The position numbers and the translations under genes were made by a program. Shown here piece after piece: positions 4,867-63,552 of a DNA stretch of 64,000 nt (position 1 is its first letter; each line of letters opens with the position of its first letter). The notes beneath the pieces are model-generated. The model was not told the DNA's origin. It did no database searches and saw only the letters and a program-made list of their open reading frames with translations. The stretch spans positions 330,651 through 394,650 of the forward strand of contig NC_090604.1 of assembly GCF_000497125.1 (NCBI RefSeq), written 5' to 3'. Source of the stretch: Spironucleus salmonicida. Lineage: Eukaryota.

Positions 4867-5934
4867 TCACTGTTACTCCACTCTCTTCTTCGCCTTTCTA
4901 ATGAAATAATAAGCCAGGCCGCCACCAATTGCCCCAACGACCAACAAGACTCCAATGACGATGCCCGTGACTGCCCCACTGCTCAAATTCTGGCTATTAA
5001 CTTCCGGATCTGGATTAGACGGCGTGGGAACTACCGGGACCGGAACAGGTGGGGAAGGCGGCACAGGTCCGGGTACAGGAGCAGGTGGTGTGGGAACATC
5101 CGGTTCGGGAGTTACCGGGTCTGGACCAGATGGTTCTGGAGTAGGTGGTTCTGGAACAGGGGGTTCTGGAATATTTGGATCTGGAGTAGGTGGCTCAGGA
5201 GCAGGGGTCTCAGACCAGCACATCCCGCCAATGAGCTTAAACCCAGTTGCACAGTCCCTACACGAACTACCTTTTGTAATAATAGCATTAGTAAGACACG
5301 TTTTGCACTTATCTAACGTAGAATTACAGGAAGCGCAATTGGTAGCGTACCTACATATACAGGCTGAATCAAGCCCTTCAGCACAGGGTGTAGCCACTCC
5401 CTCCTTGCAGTAGTTACCATCTGTAATATCATCACATTTAGGAGTACATGTACCTTGAATTGTCGTAATATGCGTTCTCCAATCGCACGAGTTGCAAACC
5501 GTCGCCGAGGAGCAAATATCGCAGTCATCAGCACATTTCACGCACCTCTTTGTGGACATATCGCAAAATGTTGAACGTTGACCCTTGCAGTCTTCATTAT
5601 TATTGCAGACTCTGACGCATTTGCCATCTTACATTGTGAACCCAACGGCGCATTTCTAGCACGAATTGGAATCGGCACATTCAGCACAATCCTTTTAGCA
5701 GTCAGAGCAAACTTTTCCATTAAGATAAGATCCAGGGAGGCAAGTGGCGCAACTTCCTCCTGAACATGTCTTGCAGTTTGTTGTCACTATATTATATTCA
5801 CAGTAGCAGCCCTGGCCGAATTTCATGTCTTCTGTGCACGGTTTACAGGGAACACTTATATAATCAGTAGCTGGGCAAAAATGATCTTCCTGGCACCTAG
5901 TGATACGGATAGTACATGTTCCAGGATTTGTCAT
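4867..5934 (-). CDS. Cysteine-rich membrane protein (CRMP, VSP-like), 355 aa, long Pro-rich stalk, tail [10 protein letters not shown]
   Basis: One ORF when TAR=Gln; CxxC/CxC repeats; [31 protein letters not shown]. Confidence 0.93.
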
Positions 5935-18441: not shown

Positions 18442-18512
18442 GCTGAAATAGTATAATGGTAGTACAGTCGGTTGTGGTCCGACTGGTCTGAGTTCAATTC
18501 TCGGTTTCGGCA
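18442..18512 (+). tRNA. tRNA-His(GTG)
   Basis: Cloverleaf; GTCGG TT GTG GT CCGAC. Confidence 0.95.
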
Positions 18513-18618: not shown

Positions 18619-18692
18619 AGCCAATATTGGGATTTGAACCCAAGACCTCGACATTACTAGTGTCGCGCTCTAACCAACTGAGCTATACCGGC
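18619..18692 (-). tRNA. tRNA-Thr(AGT), identical to 10204-10277
   Basis: Reverse complement of the first copy. Confidence 0.97.
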
Positions 18693-39532: not shown

Positions 39533-40387
39533 ATGGACACAACAGGAACCTGTACTAGAACTGACACAAACTGCAAAGCCGGGCACTTTTGCCCAACGAC
39601 TGGAACGGCAGAAGTAAATTGCGTCTCCTGCAGTGAGAACATGACTTTTGGTCAGGGCTGCTACTGCAAAGATAAAGATGTGACTACAAATTGCAAAGTG
39701 TGTACTGGAGAAGCATGCACCACATGCCTCCCTGGATCTTTCCTTAATGGTAATGTGTGTACAAAATGCTCAAAAGGCTGTGGGGAGTGCACGAGTTTAA
39801 ATGCATGTCAGAACTGTGCTGAGGGGTACACAATACAAGAAGATGAATGCGTCAGAATCTGCAATAGCAATAAAGACTGCGAGGATGAAACTTCAACTTA
39901 TTGCGAAATATCTATTAATAGATGTCGCAAATGTTCTACTGATTGCACAATTTGCGAATCGCCAGATTTCTGCTACGCGTGTAATGGGAATACTCATGTC
40001 ACAACGATAGCTGGATAATGTGGATTGAATTGTGAAGATTTAACCGATGGTAACTACTGCAAGTACGGAACGGCCATGGTCTGTGATGAAGAGATTAATT
40101 CTGCCTGTAAATGCGGAGTAGCATCAAATTGCGCTTCTTGCAACGCCGAATTGAATGCCTGTGATACGTGTTTGCCTAATGTAGTTAAGGGAAAAGATGG
40201 AGCCTGCAATGCATGTGCTGTTGGATATAAATTTATTGGCGATATGTGCTGGCCTGAGTAGCAAGGGACTGGGACCAACAAGATAGGGACTGGGGCGATT
40301 GTGGGAATTGTGGTTGGTGTTTTGGTGGTCGTTGGGGCAGTTGGGGGTGGTCTGGCTTATTATTTCATTAGAAAGGCTAAGAAGTGA
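39533..40387 (+). CDS. CRMP array type A, 284 aa, tail RKAKK
   Basis: Continuous with TAR=Gln. Confidence 0.93.
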
Positions 40388-40777
40388 TGCATAAACAATA
40401 AATGAATGAATCATAATAAATCATCCATTAATATTAATGCTTCGAAAGACATTGTAAGAAACTCTCCAGTGTTTACTTCTAAATATTAATAATAAAGAAA
40501 CTTGAAATTTTACTATCAAATATCAATAGTTTATTTATATTATTTTAAAATATATTAATTTATTCGATGTAAGTTGGTAAATCGTAGTAAAAATCGTTAA
40601 TATGTAAGAAAAAACGGTTTTTATATCGTGATATCATTAATTAAATTTAAACTTATACAAATGTTAAGGGAAAATAAATCAATATATACTAAAAATAATA
40701 AACTATTATTATTTGTGAAACTACGAAACTAAGTAAGTTGCTGTATTATTCATAATAATTGTCATCTAAAATTAAAA

Positions 40778-41632
40778 ATGGCGGATACTGGGACTTGTAC
40801 TAAAACAGTTACAACCTGCAAAGCTGGTCATTTCTGTCCAACTACAGACACAACTTCAGTAAGCTGTATCCCCTGCACCGAAGACATGAAGTTCGGGCAA
40901 GGCTGCTACTGTGAAGATAACATGGTTACGACCAATTGCAAGACATGTTCAGGAAGAAGTTGCTCAACCTGCCTCCCAGGCTCTTTCCTGAGCGGGAATA
41001 TGTGTTAAAAATGCTTTAAAGGCTGCGGCTAATGCACCGATTCTAATACCTGCCAGAAGTGCGCCGACGGGTATAAACTGGACAATAATGAGTGCGACAG
41101 AATCTGCTCTAAAAATGAAGACTGTCAAGATGATGCTTCGACTTTTTGCGAGATATCCTTAAAAAGTTGTGTGCCGTGTGGCAATAAATGCTTAATTTGC
41201 TCCTCTGGGATTTTCTGCAACGCGTGCGATGGGTCTTCTCATGTGACCACGATCGATGGGAAGTGTACACCGAATTGTGAAAATTTGGCCGATGGTAACT
41301 ACTGCAAAAATGGTGTAGCTACGCCCTGTGTTGCAGGGCTTGATTCTGCCTGCAAATGTTAATTTGCTCGAAACTGCGCTTCGTGCGACAGTTCTTTAAA
41401 TGGATGCGAGACGTGTTTGCCTAATGTTATTAAGGGAGAAGATGGTACTTGTAAGGATTGTGCTGTTGGGTTTAAGCACATTGGCGATATGTGCTGGCCC
41501 GAGTAGCAAGGGACTGGGACCAATAAGATCGGGACTGGAGCGATTGTGGGCATCGTGGTTGGTGTTTTGGTGGTCGTTGGAGCAGTTGGGGGCGGTTTAG
41601 CTTATTACTTTGTTAGGAGGGCGAAGAAGTGA
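40778..41632 (+). CDS. CRMP array type B, 284 aa, tail RRAKK
   Basis: Continuous with TAR=Gln. Confidence 0.93.
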
Positions 41633-42132
41633 GGTGCATGATACAATTTAAGGCAAATTAGGTGGATGGGTGCTAACTGTGCTTTTGGAGTTTGGGATTA
41701 TAAGGATTGTAGGCATCATCGTCTTAAAGCTAAAATTAAGGTGAAGCAGGTAAAGACAAGTTGAAAAACGGGGTAAGGAGATTAGACCAGTAAAAATAGA
41801 TTCGGAGTAATATCGAACTAGAATAAACTTTAGAGCTTTAATGTAGGGATACTTGGGAGTTTGCTATCGAATATACATACTCGATTTAGATGATTGCCTC
41901 GGTTTCAACTTTGGTTTAACTGTATATTACTTAATAGTAGTATAAATAAATAAAAAGTAACAAAAAACACTTTCTATTACTTGATATTAATACATAATTA
42001 TTAAATTTTAATTATTATATTAAATATAATATTAAGTATTTATATGAAATAGTATCCTGTTTTTTACCTGCGAAACTGAGAAACGAAGTTATGTGCTGAA
42101 TTATCGATTTAATTTGATACTGTAAAATAAAA

Positions 42133-42987
42133 ATGGACACAACAGGAACCTGTACTAGAACTGACACAAACTGCAAAGCCGGGCACTTTTGCCCAACGAC
42201 TGGAACGGCAGAAGTAAATTGCGTCTCCTGCAGTGAGAACATGACTTTTGGTCAGGGCTGCTACTGCAAAGATAAAGATGTGACTACAAATTGCAAAGTG
42301 TGTACTGGAGAAGCATGCACCACATGCCTCCCTGGATCTTTCCTTAATGGTAATGTGTGTACAAAATGCTCAAAAGGCTGTGGGGAGTGCACGAGTTTAA
42401 ATGCATGTCAGAACTGTGCTGAGGGGTACACAATACAAGAAGATGAATGCGTCAGAATCTGCAATAGCAATAAAGACTGCGAGGATGAAACTTCAACTTA
42501 TTGCGAAATATCTATTAATAGATGTCGCAAATGTTCTACTGATTGCACAATTTGCGAATCGCCAGATTTCTGCTACGCGTGTAATGGGAATACTCATGTC
42601 ACAACGATAGCTGGATAATGTGGATTGAATTGTGAAGATTTAACCGATGGTAACTACTGCAAGTACGGAACGGCCATGGTCTGTGATGAAGAGATTAATT
42701 CTGCCTGTAAATGCGGAGTAGCATCAAATTGCGCTTCTTGCAACGCCGAATTGAATGCCTGTGATACGTGTTTGCCTAATGTAGTTAAGGGAAAAGATGG
42801 AGCCTGCAATGCATGTGCTGTTGGATATAAATTTATTGGCGATATGTGCTGGCCTGAGTAGCAAGGGACTGGGACCAACAAGATAGGGACTGGGGCGATT
42901 GTGGGAATTGTGGTTGGCGTTTTGGTGGTCGTCGGCGCAGTTGGGGGTGGTCTGGCTTATTATTTCATTAGAAAGGCTAAGAAGTGA
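42133..42987 (+). CDS. CRMP array type A, 284 aa
   Basis: Copy of 39533-40387 with synonymous changes in the TM codons. Confidence 0.93.
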
Positions 42988-43377
42988 TGCATAAACAATA
43001 AATGAATGAATCATAATAAATCATCCATTAATATTAATGCTTCGAAAGACATTGTAAGAAACTCTCCAGTGTTTACTTCTAAATATTAATAATAAAGAAA
43101 CTTGAAATTTTACTATCAAATATCAATAGTTTATTTATATTATTTTAAAATATATTAATTTATTCGATGTAAGTTGGTAAATCGTAGTAAAAATCGTTAA
43201 TATGTAAGAAAAAACGGTTTTTATATCGTGATATCATTAATTAAATTTAAACTTATACAAATGTTAAGGGAAAATAAATCAATATATACTAAAAATAATA
43301 AACTATTATTATTTGTGAAACTACGAAACTAAGTAAGTTGCTGTATTATTCATAATAATTGTCATCTAAAATTAAAA

Positions 43378-44232
43378 ATGGCGGATACTGGGACTTGTAC
43401 TAAAACAGTTACAACCTGCAAAGCTGGTCATTTCTGTCCAACTACAGACACAACTTCAGTAAGCTGTATCCCCTGCACCGAAGACATGAAGTTCGGGCAA
43501 GGCTGCTACTGTGAAGATAACATGGTTACGACCAATTGCAAGACATGTTCAGGAAGAAGTTGCTCAACCTGCCTCCCAGGCTCTTTCCTGAGCGGGAATA
43601 TGTGTTAAAAATGCTTTAAAGGCTGCGGCTAATGCACCGATTCTAATACCTGCCAGAAGTGCGCCGACGGGTATAAACTGGACAATAATGAGTGCGACAG
43701 AATCTGCTCTAAAAATGAAGACTGTCAAGATGATGCTTCGACTTTTTGCGAGATATCCTTAAAAAGTTGTGTGCCGTGTGGCAATAAATGCTTAATTTGC
43801 TCCTCTGGGATTTTCTGCAACGCGTGCGATGGGTCTTCTCATGTGACCACGATCGATGGGAAGTGTACACCGAATTGTGAAAATTTGGCCGATGGTAACT
43901 ACTGCAAAAATGGTGTAGCTACGCCCTGTGTTGCAGGGCTTGATTCTGCCTGCAAATGTTAATTTGCTCGAAACTGCGCTTCGTGCGACAGTTCTTTAAA
44001 TGGATGCGAGACGTGTTTGCCTAATGTTATTAAGGGAGAAGATGGTACTTGTAAGGATTGTGCTGTTGGGTTTAAGCACATTGGCGATATGTGCTGGCCC
44101 GAGTAGCAAGGGACTGGGACCAATAAGATCGGGACTGGAGCGATTGTGGGCATCGTGGTTGGTGTTTTGGTGGTCGTTGGAGCAGTTGGGGGCGGTTTAG
44201 CTTATTACTTTGTTAGGAGGGCGAAGAAGTGA
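43378..44232 (+). CDS. CRMP array type B, 284 aa
   Basis: Copy of 40778-41632. Confidence 0.93.
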
Positions 44233-44732
44233 GGTGCATGATACAATTTAAGGCAAATTAGGTGGATGGGTGCTAACTGTGCTTTTGGAGTTTGGGATTA
44301 TAAGGATTGTAGGCATCATCGTCTTAAAGCTAAAATTAAGGTGAAGCAGGTAAAGACAAGTTGAAAAACGGGGTAAGGAGATTAGACCAGTAAAAATAGA
44401 TTCGGAGTAATATCGAACTAGAATAAACTTTAGAGCTTTAATGTAGGGATACTTGGGAGTTTGCTATCGAATATACATACTCGATTTAGATGATTGCCTC
44501 GGTTTCAACTTTGGTTTAACTGTATATTACTTAATAGTAGTATAAATAAATAAAAAGTAACAAAAAACACTTTCTATTACTTGATATTAATACATAATTA
44601 TTAAATTTTAATTATTATATTAAATATAATATTAAGTATTTATATGAAATAGTATCCTGTTTTTTACCTGCGAAACTGAGAAACGAAGTTATGTGCTGAA
44701 TTATCGATTTAATTTGATACTGTAAAATAAAA

Positions 44733-45602
44733 ATGGACACAACAGGAACCTGTACTAGAACTGACACAAACTGCAAAGCCGGGCACTTTTGCCCAACGAC
44801 TGGAACGGCAGAAGTAAATTGCGTCTCCTGCAGTGAGAACATGACTTTTGGTCAGGGCTGCTACTGCAAAGATAAAGATGTGACTACAAATTGCAAAGTG
44901 TGTACTGGAGAAGCATGCACCACATGCCTCCCTGGATCTTTCCTTAATGGTAATGTGTGTACAAAATGCTCAAAAGGCTGTGGGGAGTGCACGAGTTTAA
45001 ATGCATGTCAGAACTGTGCTGAGGGGTACACAATACAAGAAGATGAATGCGTCAGAATCTGCAATAGCAATAAAGACTGCGAGGATGAAACTTCAACTTA
45101 TTGCGAAATATCTATTAATAGATGTCGCAAATGTTCTACTGATTGCACAATTTGCGAATCGCCAGATTTCTGCTACGCGTGTAATGGGAATACTCATGTC
45201 ACAACGATAGCTGGATAATGTGGATTGAATTGTGAAGATTTAACCGATGGTAACTACTGCAAGTACGGAACGGCCATGGTCTGTGATGAAGAGATTAATT
45301 CTGCCTGTAAATGCGGAGTAGCATCAAATTGCGCTTCTTGCAACGCCGAATTGAATGCCTGTGATACGTGTTTGCCTAATGTAGTTAAGGGAAAAGATGG
45401 AGCCTGCAATGCATGTGCTGTTGGATATAAATTTATTGGCGATATGTGCTGGCCTGAGTAGCAAGGGACTGGGACCAACAAGATAGGGACTGGGGCGATT
45501 GTGGGAATTGTGGTTGGCGTTTTGGTGGTCGTCGGCGCAGTTGGGGGTGGTCTGGCTTATTATTTCATTAGAAAGGCGAAGAAGAGAGTGGAGTAACAGT
45601 GA
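44733..45602 (+). CDS. CRMP array type A with swapped tail [10 protein letters not shown], 289 aa
   Basis: Type A body; 3' end and flank match the 4867/25111 class. Confidence 0.92.
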
Positions 45603-56624: not shown

Positions 56625-57479
56625 ATGACCACGACAGGCACATGTACACGAACTAACAAAAAGTGCAAAGCCGGCCACTTCTGCCCAGCTAATAGTGTTA
56701 CAGCGGTAAACTGCATTCCATGTGAAAATGACATGAAATTCGGCCAGGGCTGCTATTGTGTGGATGATACAGTTATCACAAACTGCAAGACGTGCTCTGG
56801 AGATAATTGCGCCACCTGCCTCCCTGGGTCCTTTCTTAATTCAAACGTCTGCTCTAACTGTCCAAAGGGTTGTGACAAATGTGCCGAGACCAATTCGTGC
56901 TAGATATGCGCCGCTGGGTTCATAATGGAAGGTGTCAAATGCGTTAGAGTATGTGGTAGTAATAAAGACTGCGATTATGAAGATTAGCTCTTTTGCGACA
57001 TATCCTCAAAGAGGTGCGTGAAGTGCTCTGATAAGTGCTAAATTTGCTCCTCTGCGACGTTCTGCAACGTGTGCGTTGCGGGGACTTACGTCACAACTAT
57101 AGATGGGAGGTGTACTGCTGCGTGTGATGGTATAAAAGATGGTAACTACTGCAAGGATGGAGTGGCTACACCCTGCGGTGCAGGGATTGATTCTGCTTGT
57201 AAATGCGGAAAGGCTTTCAATTGCGCTTCCTGCAACAGTGCTTCAAATGCTTGTGAGACGTGTTTTCCTAATTTTGTTAAGGGAAATGGTGGTACATGTA
57301 ATTTCTGTATAAGTCGTTCCAACCCGACTGATAATAAATGCTAGCCTGAGGAGAAAGAGTCTGAGGCCACCAAGATCGGGGCTGGGGCGGTTGTGTGTAT
57401 TGTGCTTGGAGGTTTGGTGGTTGTTGGGGGAGTTGTGGATGGTTTAGCTTATTATTTTGTTAGGAAGGGTAAGAAGTGA
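56625..57479 (+). CDS. CRMP, 284 aa, altered TM (AVVCIVLGGLVVVGGVVDGLAYYFV), tail RKGKK
   Basis: Continuous with TAR=Gln; 5' flank paralogous to 37730-38177. Confidence 0.88.
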
Positions 57480-57919
57480 TGAGAATTAGGAAGTATCTTT
57501 TTGATAGTTAAATACGCAGTGTGGAAATTTTTTTAATTTCAGATTTATTTTATTTGTGGTTTAATCAAAATATACAACATAGATGTAACTAACGATTATG
57601 TAAAAGGTATATTTAAGATACAAACTATACTTTCTTTTACATTCCCATGTAGGACATTTTTTACAAACCTATAATAAAATTAAAAATATTTAATTTCTAT
57701 AGAATTAAATTATAATTATATAAATAAATTCATTCAGTAGATTTGAGAATGCAAATTAATGTAAATAGTTACTGATTTGTTACTCCAAATTTGTTACCTA
57801 CTGGTTATAGCGAATCTAGAGCAATTAAGCTACTTCAAGTCTACAACCTAACAGTACTCATGAAATTTGAGACGACACCATAAATTACATTTTCTTACTA
57901 TATAATAACTATTAATCAT

Positions 57920-57990
57920 GCTGAAATAGTATAATGGTAGTACAGTCGGTTGTGGTCCGACTGGTCTGAGTTCAATTCTCGGTTTCGGCA
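57920..57990 (+). tRNA. tRNA-His(GTG), identical to 18442-18512
   Basis: Same cloverleaf. Confidence 0.95.
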
Positions 57991-58069
57991 CATTTTGATA
58001 TTTTAACACCCACCTTAGTATACTCACTTACTAAAGAATTTTCCTTACATCAAATATTCTTATAATTCA

Positions 58070-58138
58070 GGGCTAATAGCTCAGCTGGAAGAGCGCATCG
58101 GAAAGATGGTGACCGGGGTTCAAGTCCTCGTTAGTCCA
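58070..58138 (+). ncRNA. tRNA-Ala-like RNA with a truncated anticodon arm (4-bp stem, GGAAA loop)
   Basis: GGGCTAA TA GCTC AGCTGGAA GAGC G CATC GGAAA GATG GTGAC CGGGG TTCAAGT CCTCG TTAGTCC A; G3:U70, A73; A/B boxes intact. Confidence 0.8.
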
Positions 58139-58209
58139 ACTTATTAATTCCGTTTTTGCGCTTAACCTTCTTACCCATTTCATTCATTTCCAAAAACCAA
58201 AACAACCCT

Positions 58210-58713
58210 TCATTCCGGCAGCTCTATTACCTGCTCACAAGGATGTGCGTTCTCTACCGTTTCACCAGATTTTTACACCCCAATTTTCCGCAATTCCGCC
58301 ACTCCTTCATTAGCATATTTCTTTCCTTTCTACCCTGCGGCCTGCCCGACAGCGAGCGCCTGGTCCTTCTTGAAGACGAGCTCTACGATGCAGACGACGA
58401 AGACGACGCAACCAATCACGGAGCCGTAACAGCCCTGCCAACCCGCGCCGCAGAAGTTAGACAGAGAGCCGAAGTAGAAGCAGGCGAGCACCATGAGCAA
58501 AATTGGCGCCCCGACTCCGGACGTCAGACCCTGGAAGTAGGGGGTCAGCGGTGTGACCCACGGAATGAGGCAAATTACTATTTCCAACGTTAGTAGAAAC
58601 AACGATCTACAGACCGCGCTGACCGAGTTATTGAAGTAGGATAACGTCAGCACGGCGAGTAGGATCGCCATCACGAGGTTAACGATCAGCCAGAGCATGT
58701 CTATTTGGACCAT
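58210..58713 (-). CDS. Multi-pass membrane protein, paralogue of 9582-10094, 167 aa
   Basis: PYFQGLTSGVGAPILLMVLACFY...FC...W..CYG...VELVFKKD. Confidence 0.78.
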
Positions 58714-58973
58714 TTCAAGATGAAATAAAATATAATTATTATATTATAATTAACGAAAGTTAAATTTTACAGTGGAGTCGAAATAAATTGTTAAATTCTA
58801 TAATATAGCATATTTTGAAATTTGGAATTAGTTGTAGAAAAACTCAAATTGCACTAAACCGGAAAAGTAATAGTAGAATGTGAGCTAAATAAATTGGTTG
58901 AAATTACTAAATTATTTCAGGTTAAACAAAAAATAAAAAACCATCAATATTATATGATATTAATGTTAATATA

Positions 58974-59261
58974 TCAAAAGATTCTACAAACCATCGCGAC
59001 CACGAAATAGGTGAAAATTATGTACAGAAACGCGCCCTTTCTGCGCTTGTTGCCGACTAGAACCTGCGTAAGCACCGACTTCAGGTCCCGTGCCTCCTCC
59101 TCCACCAAATCCTTGGCGCTCACTTGCTTAACTTTCGTGTCCTGGAGCACCTCCGAGTCGACTTCGAGCTGTGTGCCGATTTTCTTCAGGTTTGATGTCA
59201 GCTGCTTCGCCAGCTTTAGCGCGTCGTCTGTCAGGTTGTCTTTGTATGACTCGTTCTGCAT
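58974..59261 (-). CDS. Minimal Qc-SNARE, Use1-like, 95 aa
   Basis: LTDDALKLAKQLTSNLKKIGTQLEVDSEVL heptads followed by a C-terminal TM. Confidence 0.65.
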   Translation of the reverse strand: MQNESYKDNLTDDALKLAKQLTSNLKKIGTQLEVDSEVLQDTKVKQVSAKDLVEEEARDLKSVLTQVLVGNKRRKGAFLYIIFTYFVVAMVCRIF

Positions 59262-59341
59262 TTTGAGTATATTATTTTAATGATATAATAATATGTTTTT
59301 AACCTTATTTATATATTATACAAGCCATTATGATTTAACAT

Positions 59342-59414
59342 GCTCGTTTAGCTCAGTAGGTAGAGCGTTTGTCTGATAAGCAGAAGGTCCTGGGTTCGAG
59401 CCCCAGAACGAGCA
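59342..59414 (+). tRNA. tRNA-Ile(GAT), identical to 14540-14612
   Basis: Same cloverleaf, followed by a T-run. Confidence 0.96.
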
Positions 59415-59730
59415 AATTTTTTATTTTGCGCATAGCACAGAAATCGATCGGAGAGTCAAAATTTTCATGCAAAATTTCTCTAGTCCAAATTTAAAGTAAT
59501 TCGACTTTCGGCCGTAGACCTTTCTGCAGGCTATAGACTTTTCCAGCAAAACTTTTTTACCTGCCCCCTGTTCGCCAAAATTTACCAATTCAGGATTAAA
59601 ACCAATACTAACTCCACTCGCCAATTATTGAAATAAACACTTTTACGCTACTTTCACTTTCTACGGCAAATATACAACAAAATTAAATACGTCTATTTAC
59701 TATATAATAATAGTATATATAAAAACTAAA

Positions 59731-62428: not shown

Positions 62429-62689
62429 TCATTAACCTTTGTCAATACATCCAAATAGATCGTTAACATCTTTCATCATCTCTTTCTTTTTTAATTCCTC
62501 TTTTTCTTACTCAGCTTTTGGGTCAAATTTCTTATGCATATCATGTTTGTACCATTTGTTTCTTAGAGCTTCCTCAGGGATATGTTTAAGTACCTTTTTA
62601 TGAATTTTTTGCCAGTCCCCTTCATATGCCGCGAATGCTTTTTTTAGTTGGTCAAACTCTTCAGATGTCCAATTATGTTTTCTTTTCAT
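62429..62689 (-). CDS. Single-repeat Myb/SANT protein, 86 aa
   Basis: HNWTSEEFDQL...GDWQKI...LRNKWY. Confidence 0.85.
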
Positions 62690-63027
62690 TTTAAAATGGA
62701 AGTTTTCGGAGAAAATTAGTATATACTACTAAAATTTATATAGACTAAAAAAATCTGACGAGTATTTACTTTATATTTATATTCATTATTTTGTATATTA
62801 TTGTAAGGTTTCGAAATAGGTTCAATGAATTAAAAAAATATTACGTTAATTTGATCAAAATTAGTATAAATATGATATTATTAAAATTTAGTTTACATAC
62901 TACAGTAACAATTTTATTGATATAATAATTTATAAAGATCTCTAATATTTTTAATAAATCGTAAAATTATAAATACAGGATAATAATATATTCTTAAACA
63001 TCGATTATATTAAAAATCAAATAATTA

Positions 63028-63552
63028 ATGCCTAATATGAATAAAATTTGGATGATCTGCAATATGATTATGGCATTATTTTTACTAGTATCTTCTTTAA
63101 TATCATTTTCGAATTATGCACCTACTGTTTTTAAAGCATTATTTTTTATAGCACTAGAAATCATTATTATACTGATTCCATTCATCCGCATTTTTGATCC
63201 ATATTTTTAGTTTTTAACGTTTTAGGTAACATCTCCAATATTAATATGCATTATTGCATGCTTTTATATAGATTCCTTAAGTCAGTTTTGTGGAAATGGA
63301 TGGTAAACATGCTATGGAAGTATAACTGGATATGCAATAATAATTATTTGCATAGTTGAAATAATAATGAGAAGGGATGAAGTTAATGATGTCCTTAATT
63401 AAACTGGTATGAGAACATCAAAGTCTGAACCACAAGTTTAAACAATAGACCCTGAAGTTGGTGGATTAGAACTTTCTTAATAGTAGGAATAAGAATCAGT
63501 GGAAGAAGTATAGGAGTAGAAAATAGAGCCAGGTCAGTTTGTGGAATTCTGA
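63028..63552 (+). CDS. Multi-pass membrane protein, third paralogue of 9582-10094, 174 aa
   Basis: PYFQFL...PILICIIACFY...FCGNGWQTCYG. Confidence 0.78.

What the first reader, a model, noticed from the sequence alone, without database searches (positions are those of the whole stretch)
58070..58138. tRNA-Ala-like gene with no canonical anticodon loop: a candidate chargeable, non-decoding RNA
Seen: a 69-nt cloverleaf with a fully paired acceptor stem (G1-C72, G2-C71, G3:U70), A73, a perfect D stem, an intact T arm, Pol III A/B boxes and a T5 run ~15 nt downstream. The anticodon arm is 13 nt instead of 17 (CATC-GGAAA-GATG): 4 clean pairs, a 5-nt purine loop, no U33 and no NGC triplet. Established: G3:U70 plus A73 is the AlaRS identity set, AlaRS ignores the anticodon, and the tmRNA tRNA-like domain uses this logic. 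Inference: all other arms are intact, which fits selection better than decay. It could be an Ala donor for stalled-ribosome rescue/Ala-tailing (Rqc2/NEMF type) or for non-ribosomal aminoacyl transfer. I know of no such nuclear RNA in diplomonads.
Basis: partly seen in the sequence, partly recalled or inferred. Interest (0 to 1): 0.88.

Follow-up and report, generated by a model that had tools for sequence, protein, structure and literature searches.

The report
tRNA-Ala-like gene lacking an anticodon
A diplomonad genome carries a well-formed alanine-tRNA look-alike whose anticodon arm is cut down to a small hairpin, so it cannot read codons; it is either a recently disabled tRNA copy or, less likely, an RNA that carries alanine for a job outside normal translation.

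Summary
Window 58070-58138 (+) is a 69-nt tRNA homologue (Rfam tRNA 44.5 bits, cut-off 29). It has G3:U70, A73, intact D and T arms, and a 13-nt arm of 4 bp plus a GGAAA loop where 17 nt belong. ARAGORN does not call it. Contigs from 2 of 2 laid runs of a second study match it letter for letter, so it is not an assembly error. It cannot decode.

Selected function versus a young dead tRNA-Ala copy could not be decided. No genome of this organism or its relatives was searchable. The element is single-copy in the window and a specific metagenome scan found nothing. The RNA cover is unstranded and fits an antisense mRNA better. A clean hairpin is weak evidence, because 6 of 14 possible 4-nt deletions would leave one. 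An Rqc2/NEMF role is disfavoured.

Best reading: a non-decoding tRNA-Ala relic that could still be transcribed and charged (0.55). A selected chargeable RNA gets 0.25.

In passing: Acidimicrobiia-type contigs hold a conserved anticodon-less tRNA-Ala-like gene beside a mini-AlaRS paralogue and an aminoacyl-lipid synthase.

The parts
58070..58138 (+). tRNA-Ala-like gene, 69 nt, without an anticodon
   Evidence: Rfam RF00005 44.5 bits. Cloverleaf MFE. Not called by ARAGORN.
58070..58076 (+). Acceptor stem, 5' strand. It pairs with 58131-58137 and includes G3 of the G3:U70 pair.
   Evidence: Sequence and fold.
58079..58094 (+). D arm: 4-bp stem and 8-nt loop. This is the A-box region.
   Evidence: The box consensus is recalled, not tested.
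58096..58108 (+). Truncated arm of 13 nt: 4 bp plus loop GGAAA, in place of the 17-nt anticodon arm.
   Evidence: In the alignment the model has 9 positions where the sequence has 5.
58114..58130 (+). T arm: 5-bp stem with one G:U, and a 7-nt loop. This is the B-box region.
58131..58138 (+). Acceptor stem 3' strand, including U70, and discriminator A73.
58153..58157 (+). T5 run, a candidate Pol III terminator, 15 nt after the discriminator.
   Evidence: In 6 of the 8 ordinary tRNA genes of the window the first run of 4 or more T starts at +3 to +5.
57920..57990 (+). Ordinary tRNA-His(GTG) gene, 79 nt upstream on the same strand.
58210..58713 (-). Convergent ORF for a small multi-pass membrane protein (code 6), with no Pfam family. 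Its transcript probably runs antisense through the element.
   Evidence: RNA-type contigs run from 58706 down to 57756-57760. That the transcript is antisense is an inference.

Best explanation
The element is a copy of a tRNA-Ala-type gene that lost its anticodon. It sits in a tRNA gene pair beside tRNA-His. At least two changes in the anticodon arm are needed to explain its present form: a 4-nt deletion and at least one substitution. What remains is a stable 4-bp hairpin with a 5-nt purine loop.

Everything outside that arm is intact. This includes the parts used for Pol III transcription, for trimming by RNase P and RNase Z, for CCA addition and for AlaRS recognition. If it is transcribed, it should therefore give a roughly 72-nt RNA that can be alanylated but cannot pair with any codon.

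I judge it most likely a gene relic with no selected function of its own. It is tolerated because a tRNA-Ala that cannot decode is harmless, whereas one with a changed anticodon would insert Ala at wrong codons.

Shown: the homology, the structure, the identity nucleotides, the missing anticodon, and that the sequence is not an assembly error. Inferred: the transcription, processing and charging, and the absence of a selected function.
For: - It is a tRNA homologue whose whole score deficit lies in the short arm (44.5 bits against 58-71.2 for the 8 ordinary genes).
- It lies 79 nt after an ordinary tRNA-His on the same strand. The window's other tRNA-His copy at 18442 is likewise followed closely by a second tRNA gene, tRNA-Thr at 18619-18692.
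- tRNA genes here occur as identical duplicates with unrelated flanks: His x2, Ile x2, Thr x2. The related Spironucleus salmonicida genome is reported to hold 145 tRNA genes against 63 in Giardia (passage, PMC3916229). Redundant copies that can die are therefore expected.
- The element is single-copy in 64 kb (0 further matches at up to 3 mismatches for two probes). A specific 24-mer found 0 hits in metagenome contigs.
- Its T run is at +15, while 6 of 8 ordinary genes have theirs at +3 to +5.
- By enumeration, 6 of 14 possible 4-nt deletions leave a clean hairpin, so the tidy arm needs no selection.
- The sequence itself is confirmed by independent contigs.
Against: - No decay is visible outside the arm. 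All stems are paired, and by my reading of the sequence the conserved D-loop and T-loop positions and the 15-48 tertiary pair are kept.
- The arm cannot be derived from an NGC arm by one deletion alone. Its loop fits the GNR(N)A pentaloop type, which I recall as a stable fold, so it looks tidied rather than broken.
- No other tRNA relic, even below threshold, occurs in the 64 kb. The related genome is described as compact, with 21 annotated pseudogenes (passage), so relics are not common.
- RNA-type contigs of 2 of 2 runs cover the element, though without strand information.
- The parent tRNA-Ala gene could not be compared, so 'young copy' is an assumption.
Confidence: 0.55

Rival explanations
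1. It is a selected, expressed tRNA-like RNA. Pol III transcribes it, it receives CCA, and the cytoplasmic AlaRS charges it through G3:U70. It stays out of decoding because it has no anticodon. It would serve as an alanine donor for a reaction outside the ribosome's A site, such as transfer to a lipid, a protein or a small molecule, or as a sensor or decoy for AlaRS or eEF1A.
For: - All parts outside the arm are intact and the replacement hairpin is clean and stable.
- A T5 run follows it.
- RNA-type contigs cover it in 2 of 2 runs.
- Such RNAs exist. A conserved anticodon-less tRNA-Ala-like gene sits 53-135 nt from a mini-AlaRS paralogue in 5 of 6 loci holding that paralogue. An aminoacyl-phosphatidylglycerol synthase gene lies within about 6 kb in 3 of 3 loci with enough flank.
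- AlaPGS is reported to use a minihelix as well as full-length tRNA (passage, PMC6103681).
Against: - No homologue or second copy was found.
- None of the 18 window ORFs scanned matches an AlaRS-like or aminoacyl-transferase family.
- The RNA cover is unstranded. It begins at 58706 in both runs, which fits the start of the convergent mRNA, so it need not come from the element.
- The bacterial family is an analogue, not a relative. Its model scores the element 50.5 bits against 82.6-102.3 for members.
Confidence: 0.25
2. It acts as DNA or as a processing signal rather than as a charged RNA. Its intact internal boxes could bind TFIIIC and Pol III and act as a boundary between the convergent genes. 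Alternatively its fold could direct RNase P or RNase Z cleavage of a longer transcript, as with mascRNA.
For: - The D- and T-arm box positions are intact.
- It lies between convergent Pol II genes, in a stretch with continuous RNA cover from 57756 to 58706.
Against: - No sense-strand gene lies close upstream. By position, the nearest + strand ORF ends at 57479.
- The Rfam mascRNA-menRNA model gives 14.3 bits against a cut-off of 42.5.
- Nothing here tests protein binding.
Confidence: 0.1
3. It is still a decoding tRNA with an aberrant arm: a 3-bp stem and a 7-nt loop that would present GAA. It would then insert Ala at Phe codons.
For: An alternative pairing of the 13 nt gives 3 bp plus 7 nt (read from the sequence).
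Against: - That loop has G, not U, at position 33. The stem would be 2 bp short, so the loop could not reach the decoding centre.
- ARAGORN does not accept it.
- The MFE and centroid folds are the 4-bp/5-nt form.
- Ala at Phe codons would be harmful.
Confidence: 0.03
4. It is a sequence or assembly error in an ordinary tRNA-Ala gene.
For: No contig of DNA runs X1 or X3 was laid over 57997-58700.
Against: - Contigs of X5 and X6, from a different study and different samples, match 57967-58700 with 0 differences and 0 gaps at word depth 91-98.
- X1-X4 hold 0.97-0.98 of the words of 57000-59500.
- The arm is not an NGC arm minus 4 letters.
Confidence: 0.03

Closest known systems
Canonical cytoplasmic tRNA-Ala
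   Same: Acceptor stem with G3:U70, A73, D arm, T arm, 5-nt variable region and Pol III gene layout.
   Different: 13-nt arm without U33 or an NGC anticodon. ARAGORN does not call it. The T run is further downstream than in most neighbouring tRNA genes.
tRNA pseudogenes and tRNA-like relics
   Same: A tRNA-derived sequence disabled by a lesion in one arm. Single copy, next to a live tRNA gene.
   Different: No other decay is visible. The lesion needs at least two events and leaves a stable hairpin. The parent gene could not be compared.
tRNA-like domain of tmRNA
   Same: Alanine acceptor through G3:U70 with no anticodon (recalled; also abstracts listed).
   Different: tmRNA has an mRNA-like domain and pseudoknots, needs SmpB and is bacterial or organellar. 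ARAGORN found no tmRNA and Rfam gave no tmRNA match.
mascRNA/menRNA and gammaherpesvirus tRNA-like RNAs
   Same: Cloverleaf-like small RNAs with a non-functional anticodon arm, processed by tRNA enzymes and given CCA (recalled; abstracts listed).
   Different: Those are not aminoacylated, as I recall, and mascRNA is cut from a Pol II transcript. The Rfam mascRNA-menRNA model gives 14.3 bits against 42.5. This element carries the full Ala identity set.
Anticodon-less tRNA-Ala-like genes linked to a mini-AlaRS paralogue in Acidimicrobiia-type contigs
   Same: Full tRNA-Ala body with G3:U70 and A73, with the anticodon arm replaced by a short stable hairpin.
   Different: Those are bacterial, encode CCA, have tetraloop arms, covary, and sit beside a dedicated mini-AlaRS and an aminoacyl-lipid synthase. 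None of the 18 window ORFs scanned matches such a family. There is no sequence kinship beyond the general tRNA likeness.

Membership tests
tRNA (Rfam RF00005) | Score at or above the curated gathering threshold | tested here: met
   44.5 bits against 29.
tRNA (decoding) | 5-bp anticodon stem, 7-nt loop with U33 and an anticodon | tested here: not met
   The arm is 4 bp plus 5 nt. ARAGORN makes no call.
tRNA-Ala as AlaRS substrate | G3:U70 wobble pair and discriminator A73 (identity set recalled) | tested here: met
   Read from the sequence and the fold.
tRNA-Ala as AlaRS substrate | Actual aminoacylation with alanine | not testable with these tools
   Needs acid-urea gels or in vitro charging.
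tRNA-Ala isoacceptor | NGC anticodon | tested here: not met
   No NGC in the 13-nt arm.
Pol III type-2 gene | Internal A and B boxes and a downstream T run | tested here: met
   The D- and T-arm consensus letters are kept in the Rfam alignment. T5 lies at +15. The box consensus is recalled.
Pol III type-2 gene | A sense-strand transcript | tested here: inconclusive
   Contigs of X5 and X6 cover it, but they are unstranded, the runs are only guessed to be RNA, and the cover fits the convergent mRNA.
Recent pseudogene of a live tRNA-Ala gene | Near-identity to a canonical tRNA-Ala gene of the same genome outside the lesion | not testable with these tools
   No whole genome is held. There is no tRNA-Ala gene in the window.
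tmRNA | tRNA-like domain joined to a tag reading frame | tested here: not met
   ARAGORN found 0 tmRNA. Rfam gave no tmRNA match at E up to 10.
mascRNA-menRNA (RF01684) | Score at or above the gathering threshold | tested here: not met
   14.3 bits against 42.5, T arm only.
   None of the 18 window ORFs scanned matches an AlaRS-like family. R1 gives 50.5 bits against 82.6-102.3 for members and 23.5-45.7 for ordinary tRNAs.

The most novel reading that the evidence does not exclude
The element is a working nuclear gene for an alanine-accepting RNA that cannot decode. It would be a eukaryotic counterpart of the bacterial anticodon-less tRNA-Ala-like RNAs found here beside a mini-AlaRS and an aminoacyl-lipid synthase. 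It would supply activated alanine to a reaction outside codon-directed translation, or titrate AlaRS or eEF1A, while staying out of translation by design.
Probability: 0.2. Interest if true: 0.8.

Novelty: new member of a known kind. Interest (0 to 1): 0.42.

Why it matters
If it is only a relic, it is a small annotation point. It still illustrates that a tRNA-Ala gene can die safely only by losing decoding altogether, because AlaRS ignores the anticodon.

If it is expressed and charged, it would be the first nuclear eukaryotic RNA known to me that carries alanine without being able to decode. It would point to aminoacyl transfer outside the ribosome in a parasite of fish.

The by-product may matter more. 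A bacterial module of mini-AlaRS, anticodon-less tRNA-Ala-like RNA and aminoacyl-lipid synthase looks like a natural aaRS/tRNA pair kept separate from translation and dedicated to lipid aminoacylation. It is analogous in logic to the LysRS-MprF fusion LysX.

Tried and rejected
- **Whole-genome search of the window's own genome:** none is held.
- **RNA holders:** no listed holder is on record as RNA. X5-X8 are only guessed to be RNA. Their contigs give no strand, start or level, so I do not count them for or against expression.
- **DNA runs X1 and X3:** no contig was laid over 57997-58700. The tool says a hole proves nothing.
- **Paralogue detection through read laying at 85% likeness:** no other letters, gaps or joints were listed. 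This says nothing about paralogues.
- **Specific 24-mer in metagenome contigs:** 0 hits.
- **Rfam at E up to 10:** nothing beyond tRNA and a 14.3-bit mascRNA T-arm match.
- **Pfam on 18 window ORFs:** only a CCT subunit and an FHA protein passed their cut-offs. There was no AlaRS-like, Fem-like, MprF-like or transferase family.
- **Derivation by a single deletion:** I considered deriving the arm from an NGC arm this way and rejected it. Removing 31-34 would leave a loop starting G-C, not G-G. Removing 36-39 would keep U33.
- **Origin from tRNA-Pro (NGG):** rejected. The window's tRNA-Pro has a different body, and by my reading of its sequence it has G at position 37.
- **Literature on diplomonads:** searches (13 papers, listing; 181 papers, 15 listed) show no paper whose title or abstract start describes such an RNA in diplomonads.
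- **Literature on the bacterial module:** searches show none describing it. This covers only the held library.
- **Wider distribution of the bacterial family:** the pattern was found in 1 of 401 genomes sampled from the class of G001.

Full report
**1. The observation**

Window 58070-58138 (+) reads as a 69-nt tRNA-like sequence. Rfam's tRNA model scores it 44.5 bits (gathering 29; E 3.3e-06 for 64 kb against 4227 families). The 8 ordinary tRNA genes of the window score 58-71.2 bits.

In the Rfam alignment the whole deficit lies in the anticodon arm, where the model has 9 inner positions and the sequence has 5. The minimum-free-energy and centroid folds are identical. They show:
- a 7-bp acceptor stem with a G:U at 3:70,
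- a 4-bp D stem with an 8-nt loop,
- a 4-bp stem closed by GGAAA,
- a 5-nt variable region,
- a 5-bp T stem with a 7-nt loop,
- an unpaired A as discriminator.

The energy is not unusual (z -1.18; 20 of 200 shuffles fold as well), as is common for tRNAs. ARAGORN lists 8 tRNAs in the window and none here. A T5 run lies at 58153-58157, which is +15.

**2. Is the sequence real?**

Four DNA-type runs hold 0.97-0.98 of the sampled 31-mers of 57000-59500. Four runs of a second study hold 0.55-0.62. I laid X1, X3, X5 and X6 on 57500-58700.

X5 and X6 each have a 740-nt contig covering 57967-58700 with 0 other letters and 0 gaps, at word depth 91-98. That is independent of the assembly, so a mis-assembled 17-nt arm is very unlikely. 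For X1 and X3 no contig was laid beyond 57996. The tool warns that such holes prove nothing, and their word share says they hold the stretch.

**3. Setting**

The window has 0 ORFs of 250 aa or more under the standard code and 46 under code 6. It encodes a CCT chaperonin subunit (437.5 bits), an FHA protein, and many cysteine-rich single-pass membrane proteins without a Pfam family. I did not establish the species.

The element lies 79 nt downstream of an ordinary tRNA-His(GTG) on the same strand. The other tRNA-His copy of the window (18442) is likewise followed closely by a second tRNA gene. His, Ile and Thr genes each occur twice as identical copies with unrelated flanks.

The element itself is unique in the window. 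A 26-mer and a 22-mer found no further match at up to 3 mismatches. No sub-threshold tRNA relic exists anywhere in the 64 kb at E up to 10.

Its T run is further away than usual. In 6 of the 8 ordinary genes the first run of 4 or more T starts at +3 to +5. The two Thr copies have theirs at +11 and +50.

**4. Expression**

The only RNA-type evidence is the contig cover of X5 and X6, and these runs are only guessed to be RNA.
- The cover is continuous from 57756 (X6) or 57760 (X5) to 58706, with none over 57500-57745.
- The right end is the same in both runs. It lies 8 nt upstream of an in-frame ATG of a convergent minus-strand ORF (58210-58713, a small multi-pass membrane protein with no Pfam family).
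- That ORF's stop context differs from the motif that the S. salmonicida genome paper links to polyadenylation about 14 bp after the stop (passages, PMC3916229; sequence).

The simplest reading is therefore a minus-strand mRNA with a long 3' end that runs antisense through both the element and tRNA-His. This is an inference. Contigs carry no strand. The data neither show nor exclude a sense-strand small RNA.

**5. What it can and cannot do**

It cannot decode. There is no 7-nt loop, no U33 and no NGC. The alternative 3-bp/7-nt pairing would present GAA behind a G33 on a stem 2 bp too short.

From established knowledge (recalled), RNase P, RNase Z, the CCA-adding enzyme, exportin-t, AlaRS and eEF1A all read the acceptor/T half or the elbow, which is intact here. 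AlaRS needs G3:U70 and ignores the anticodon. Papers seen here agree on the acceptor stem:
- A viral mini-AlaRS charges a microhelix (abstract, PMC10036535).
- Alanyl-phosphatidylglycerol synthase uses a minihelix as well as full-length tRNA (passage, PMC6103681).

So, if transcribed, the RNA should be processed and alanylated.

**6. Selection or decay?**

I do not think the sequence alone can carry that.
- Of the 14 possible contiguous 4-nt deletions within a 5-bp/7-nt arm, 4 lie within the loop and leave 5 bp plus 3 nt.
- Two more (31-34 and 36-39) leave exactly 4 bp plus 5 nt.
- So 6 of 14 give a clean hairpin.

A young dead copy would show no other damage. There is also survivorship. Because AlaRS ignores the anticodon, a tRNA-Ala copy with a substituted anticodon would mistranslate. 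Copies that lose decoding outright are the ones that can persist.

Against pure decay, three points stand. The present loop cannot come from an NGC arm by one deletion, since removing 31-34 would leave a loop beginning G-C, not G-G, so at least one more change occurred within the 13 nt. The loop fits the GNR(N)A pentaloop type, which I recall as stable. And relics are otherwise absent from this window.

The decisive comparison, with the genome's own tRNA-Ala genes and with relatives, could not be run.

**7.

Rqc2/NEMF-type tailing is disfavoured. [quoted passage not shown]

Non-ribosomal transfer remains possible. None of the 18 window ORFs scanned by Pfam matches an AlaRS-like or transferase family.

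**8. Related sequences elsewhere, and a by-product**

- Gap sizes were 24 (49 loci), 23 (29), 22 (17, the size of the window element), 21 (6), 20 (2), 19 (4) and 18 (13).
- ARAGORN of the 120 in the script's tally. The calls are mostly at gaps 23-24, and at least one (L016) is a neighbouring tRNA gene that only touches the element.
- By my reading of the neighbouring tRNA genes listed, many short-arm cases sit in tRNA arrays or rRNA spacers and look like relics. So such lesions are not rare.

One group is different. Seven loci (4 distinct sequences) share a tRNA-Ala body with G3:U70, A73 and encoded CCA. Their anticodon arm is replaced by a 3-4-bp stem closed by a CUUG or UUCG tetraloop (alignment A1).
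- 94.8% of cells pair, and 3 pairs show compensatory changes: 1 in the mini-arm and 2 in the T stem.
- In 5 of the 6 loci that hold it, a 438-439-aa AlaRS paralogue lies 53-135 nt from the RNA gene. It matches Pfam tRNA-synt_2c at 313 bits over profile positions 2-429 of 552, so the editing and C-Ala parts are missing.
- The exception is one MAG (G002), which has no such RNA within 4 kb of the paralogue.
- Only 2 of the 80 kept genome loci are close relatives (78% and 68% identity). Both are MAGs titled uncultured Acidimicrobiia. The other 78 kept loci are at most 49% identical.
- Both MAGs also have a full-length AlaRS (622-626 bits). The paralogue is only 37-38% identical to it.
- An MprF-type synthase gene (Pfam LPG_synthase_C, 227-240 bits) lies within about 6 kb in 3 of 3 loci with 5 kb or more of flank. 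These are L057 (directly after the RNA gene), L069 and G001. G002 has none.
- The pattern occurs in 1 of 401 genomes sampled from that class, so the module is rare.

I read this as a dedicated AlaRS/tRNA-like pair that is kept out of translation and feeds lipid aminoacylation. It resembles in logic the LysRS-MprF fusion LysX described in the review (passage). Searches listed no paper describing it, within the held library only.

This family is an analogue of the window element, not a relative. Its covariance model R1 scores members 82.6-102.3 bits, the window element 50.5, and ordinary tRNAs 23.5-45.7. That reflects the shared short-arm architecture only.

**9. Verdict**

The feature is real and unusual in form, and it certainly cannot decode. 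My confidences are:

| Reading | Confidence |
|---|---|
| tRNA-Ala-derived relic that may still be transcribed and charged, with no selected role | 0.55 |
| Selected chargeable non-decoding RNA | 0.25 |
| DNA-level or processing-signal role | 0.10 |
| Aberrant decoder | 0.03 |
| Sequence or assembly error | 0.03 |

It does not bear on this locus. Interest is moderate until the genome-wide and cross-species comparison is done.

Noticed in passing
L069:1821-1888 (+), L096:959-1026 (+), L030:2767-2834 (+), L071:3630-3697 (+), L012:3369-3436 (-), L122:3879-3946 (+), L057:8400-8471 (-): A conserved anticodon-less tRNA-Ala-like gene with G3:U70, A73, encoded CCA and a tetraloop mini-arm; 3 pairs covary. 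It lies 53-135 nt from a 438-439-aa mini-AlaRS paralogue in 5 of 6 loci holding that paralogue. An MprF-type aminoacyl-lipid synthase gene lies within about 6 kb in 3 of 3 loci with enough flank. The two MAGs holding the paralogue (titled uncultured Acidimicrobiia) also have a full-length AlaRS. This looks like a dedicated AlaRS/tRNA-like pair for lipid aminoacylation..
   Followed up: partly
L004:824-892 (+), L109:1162-1230 (+), L079:2364-2431 (-), L101:1510-1577 (+): A second scaffold of G3:U70 tRNA-like genes with short arms that differ between members: 4 bp plus a 5-nt loop in two, shorter in two. No CCA is encoded and a T run follows. ARAGORN reads two of them as a CUA-anticodon tRNA on a 3-bp stem. 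Neighbours in L079 include a PAS histidine kinase and a weak DUF5518 match..
   Followed up: partly
L003:4382-4451, L038, L041, L053, L078, L047, L110, L081, L063; also L014:7001-7065, L061, L083: Partial tRNA-like elements (D arm, short hairpin, T arm, 3' acceptor strand ending in CCA or a T run) whose 5' acceptor strand does not pair. In 12 loci they lie about 270-360 nt after tRNA-Ala(tgc), and tRNA-Ile(gat) precedes that Ala gene in 11 of the 12. They may be a processing signal ahead of 23S rRNA..
   Followed up: no
L068:1039-1107 (-), L105:342-410 (+): A G3:U70 tRNA-like gene with a 5-bp stem and 3-nt loop, sitting between tRNA-Ile(gat) and tRNA-Ala(tgc). It looks like a loop-deleted duplicate of tRNA-Ala in an rRNA spacer..
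   Followed up: no
window 39533-45602: Cysteine-rich membrane-protein ORFs repeat with a 2600-bp period (starts at 39533, 42133 and 44733). Similar ORFs lie at 4867, 25111, 55391 and 56469..
   Followed up: no
window 57756-58706: RNA-type contigs of two runs share an end at 58706 and end at 57756 and 57760 on the other side. This suggests a transcript of about 950 nt for the small membrane-protein ORF (58210-58713, -), with a long 3' end antisense to two tRNA-type genes..
   Followed up: partly
window 62626-63552 (+) and 58210-58713 (-): By eye, the C-terminal half of the 62626-63552 ORF resembles the small membrane protein next to the element, so the two may be paralogues. Neither has a Pfam family..
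   Followed up: no
window 10204, 18619 (Thr); 14540, 59342 (Ile); 18442, 57920 (His): Three tRNA genes occur as letter-identical pairs with unrelated flanks. Loose ends in the laid runs show further tRNA-His copies elsewhere in the genome..
   Followed up: no
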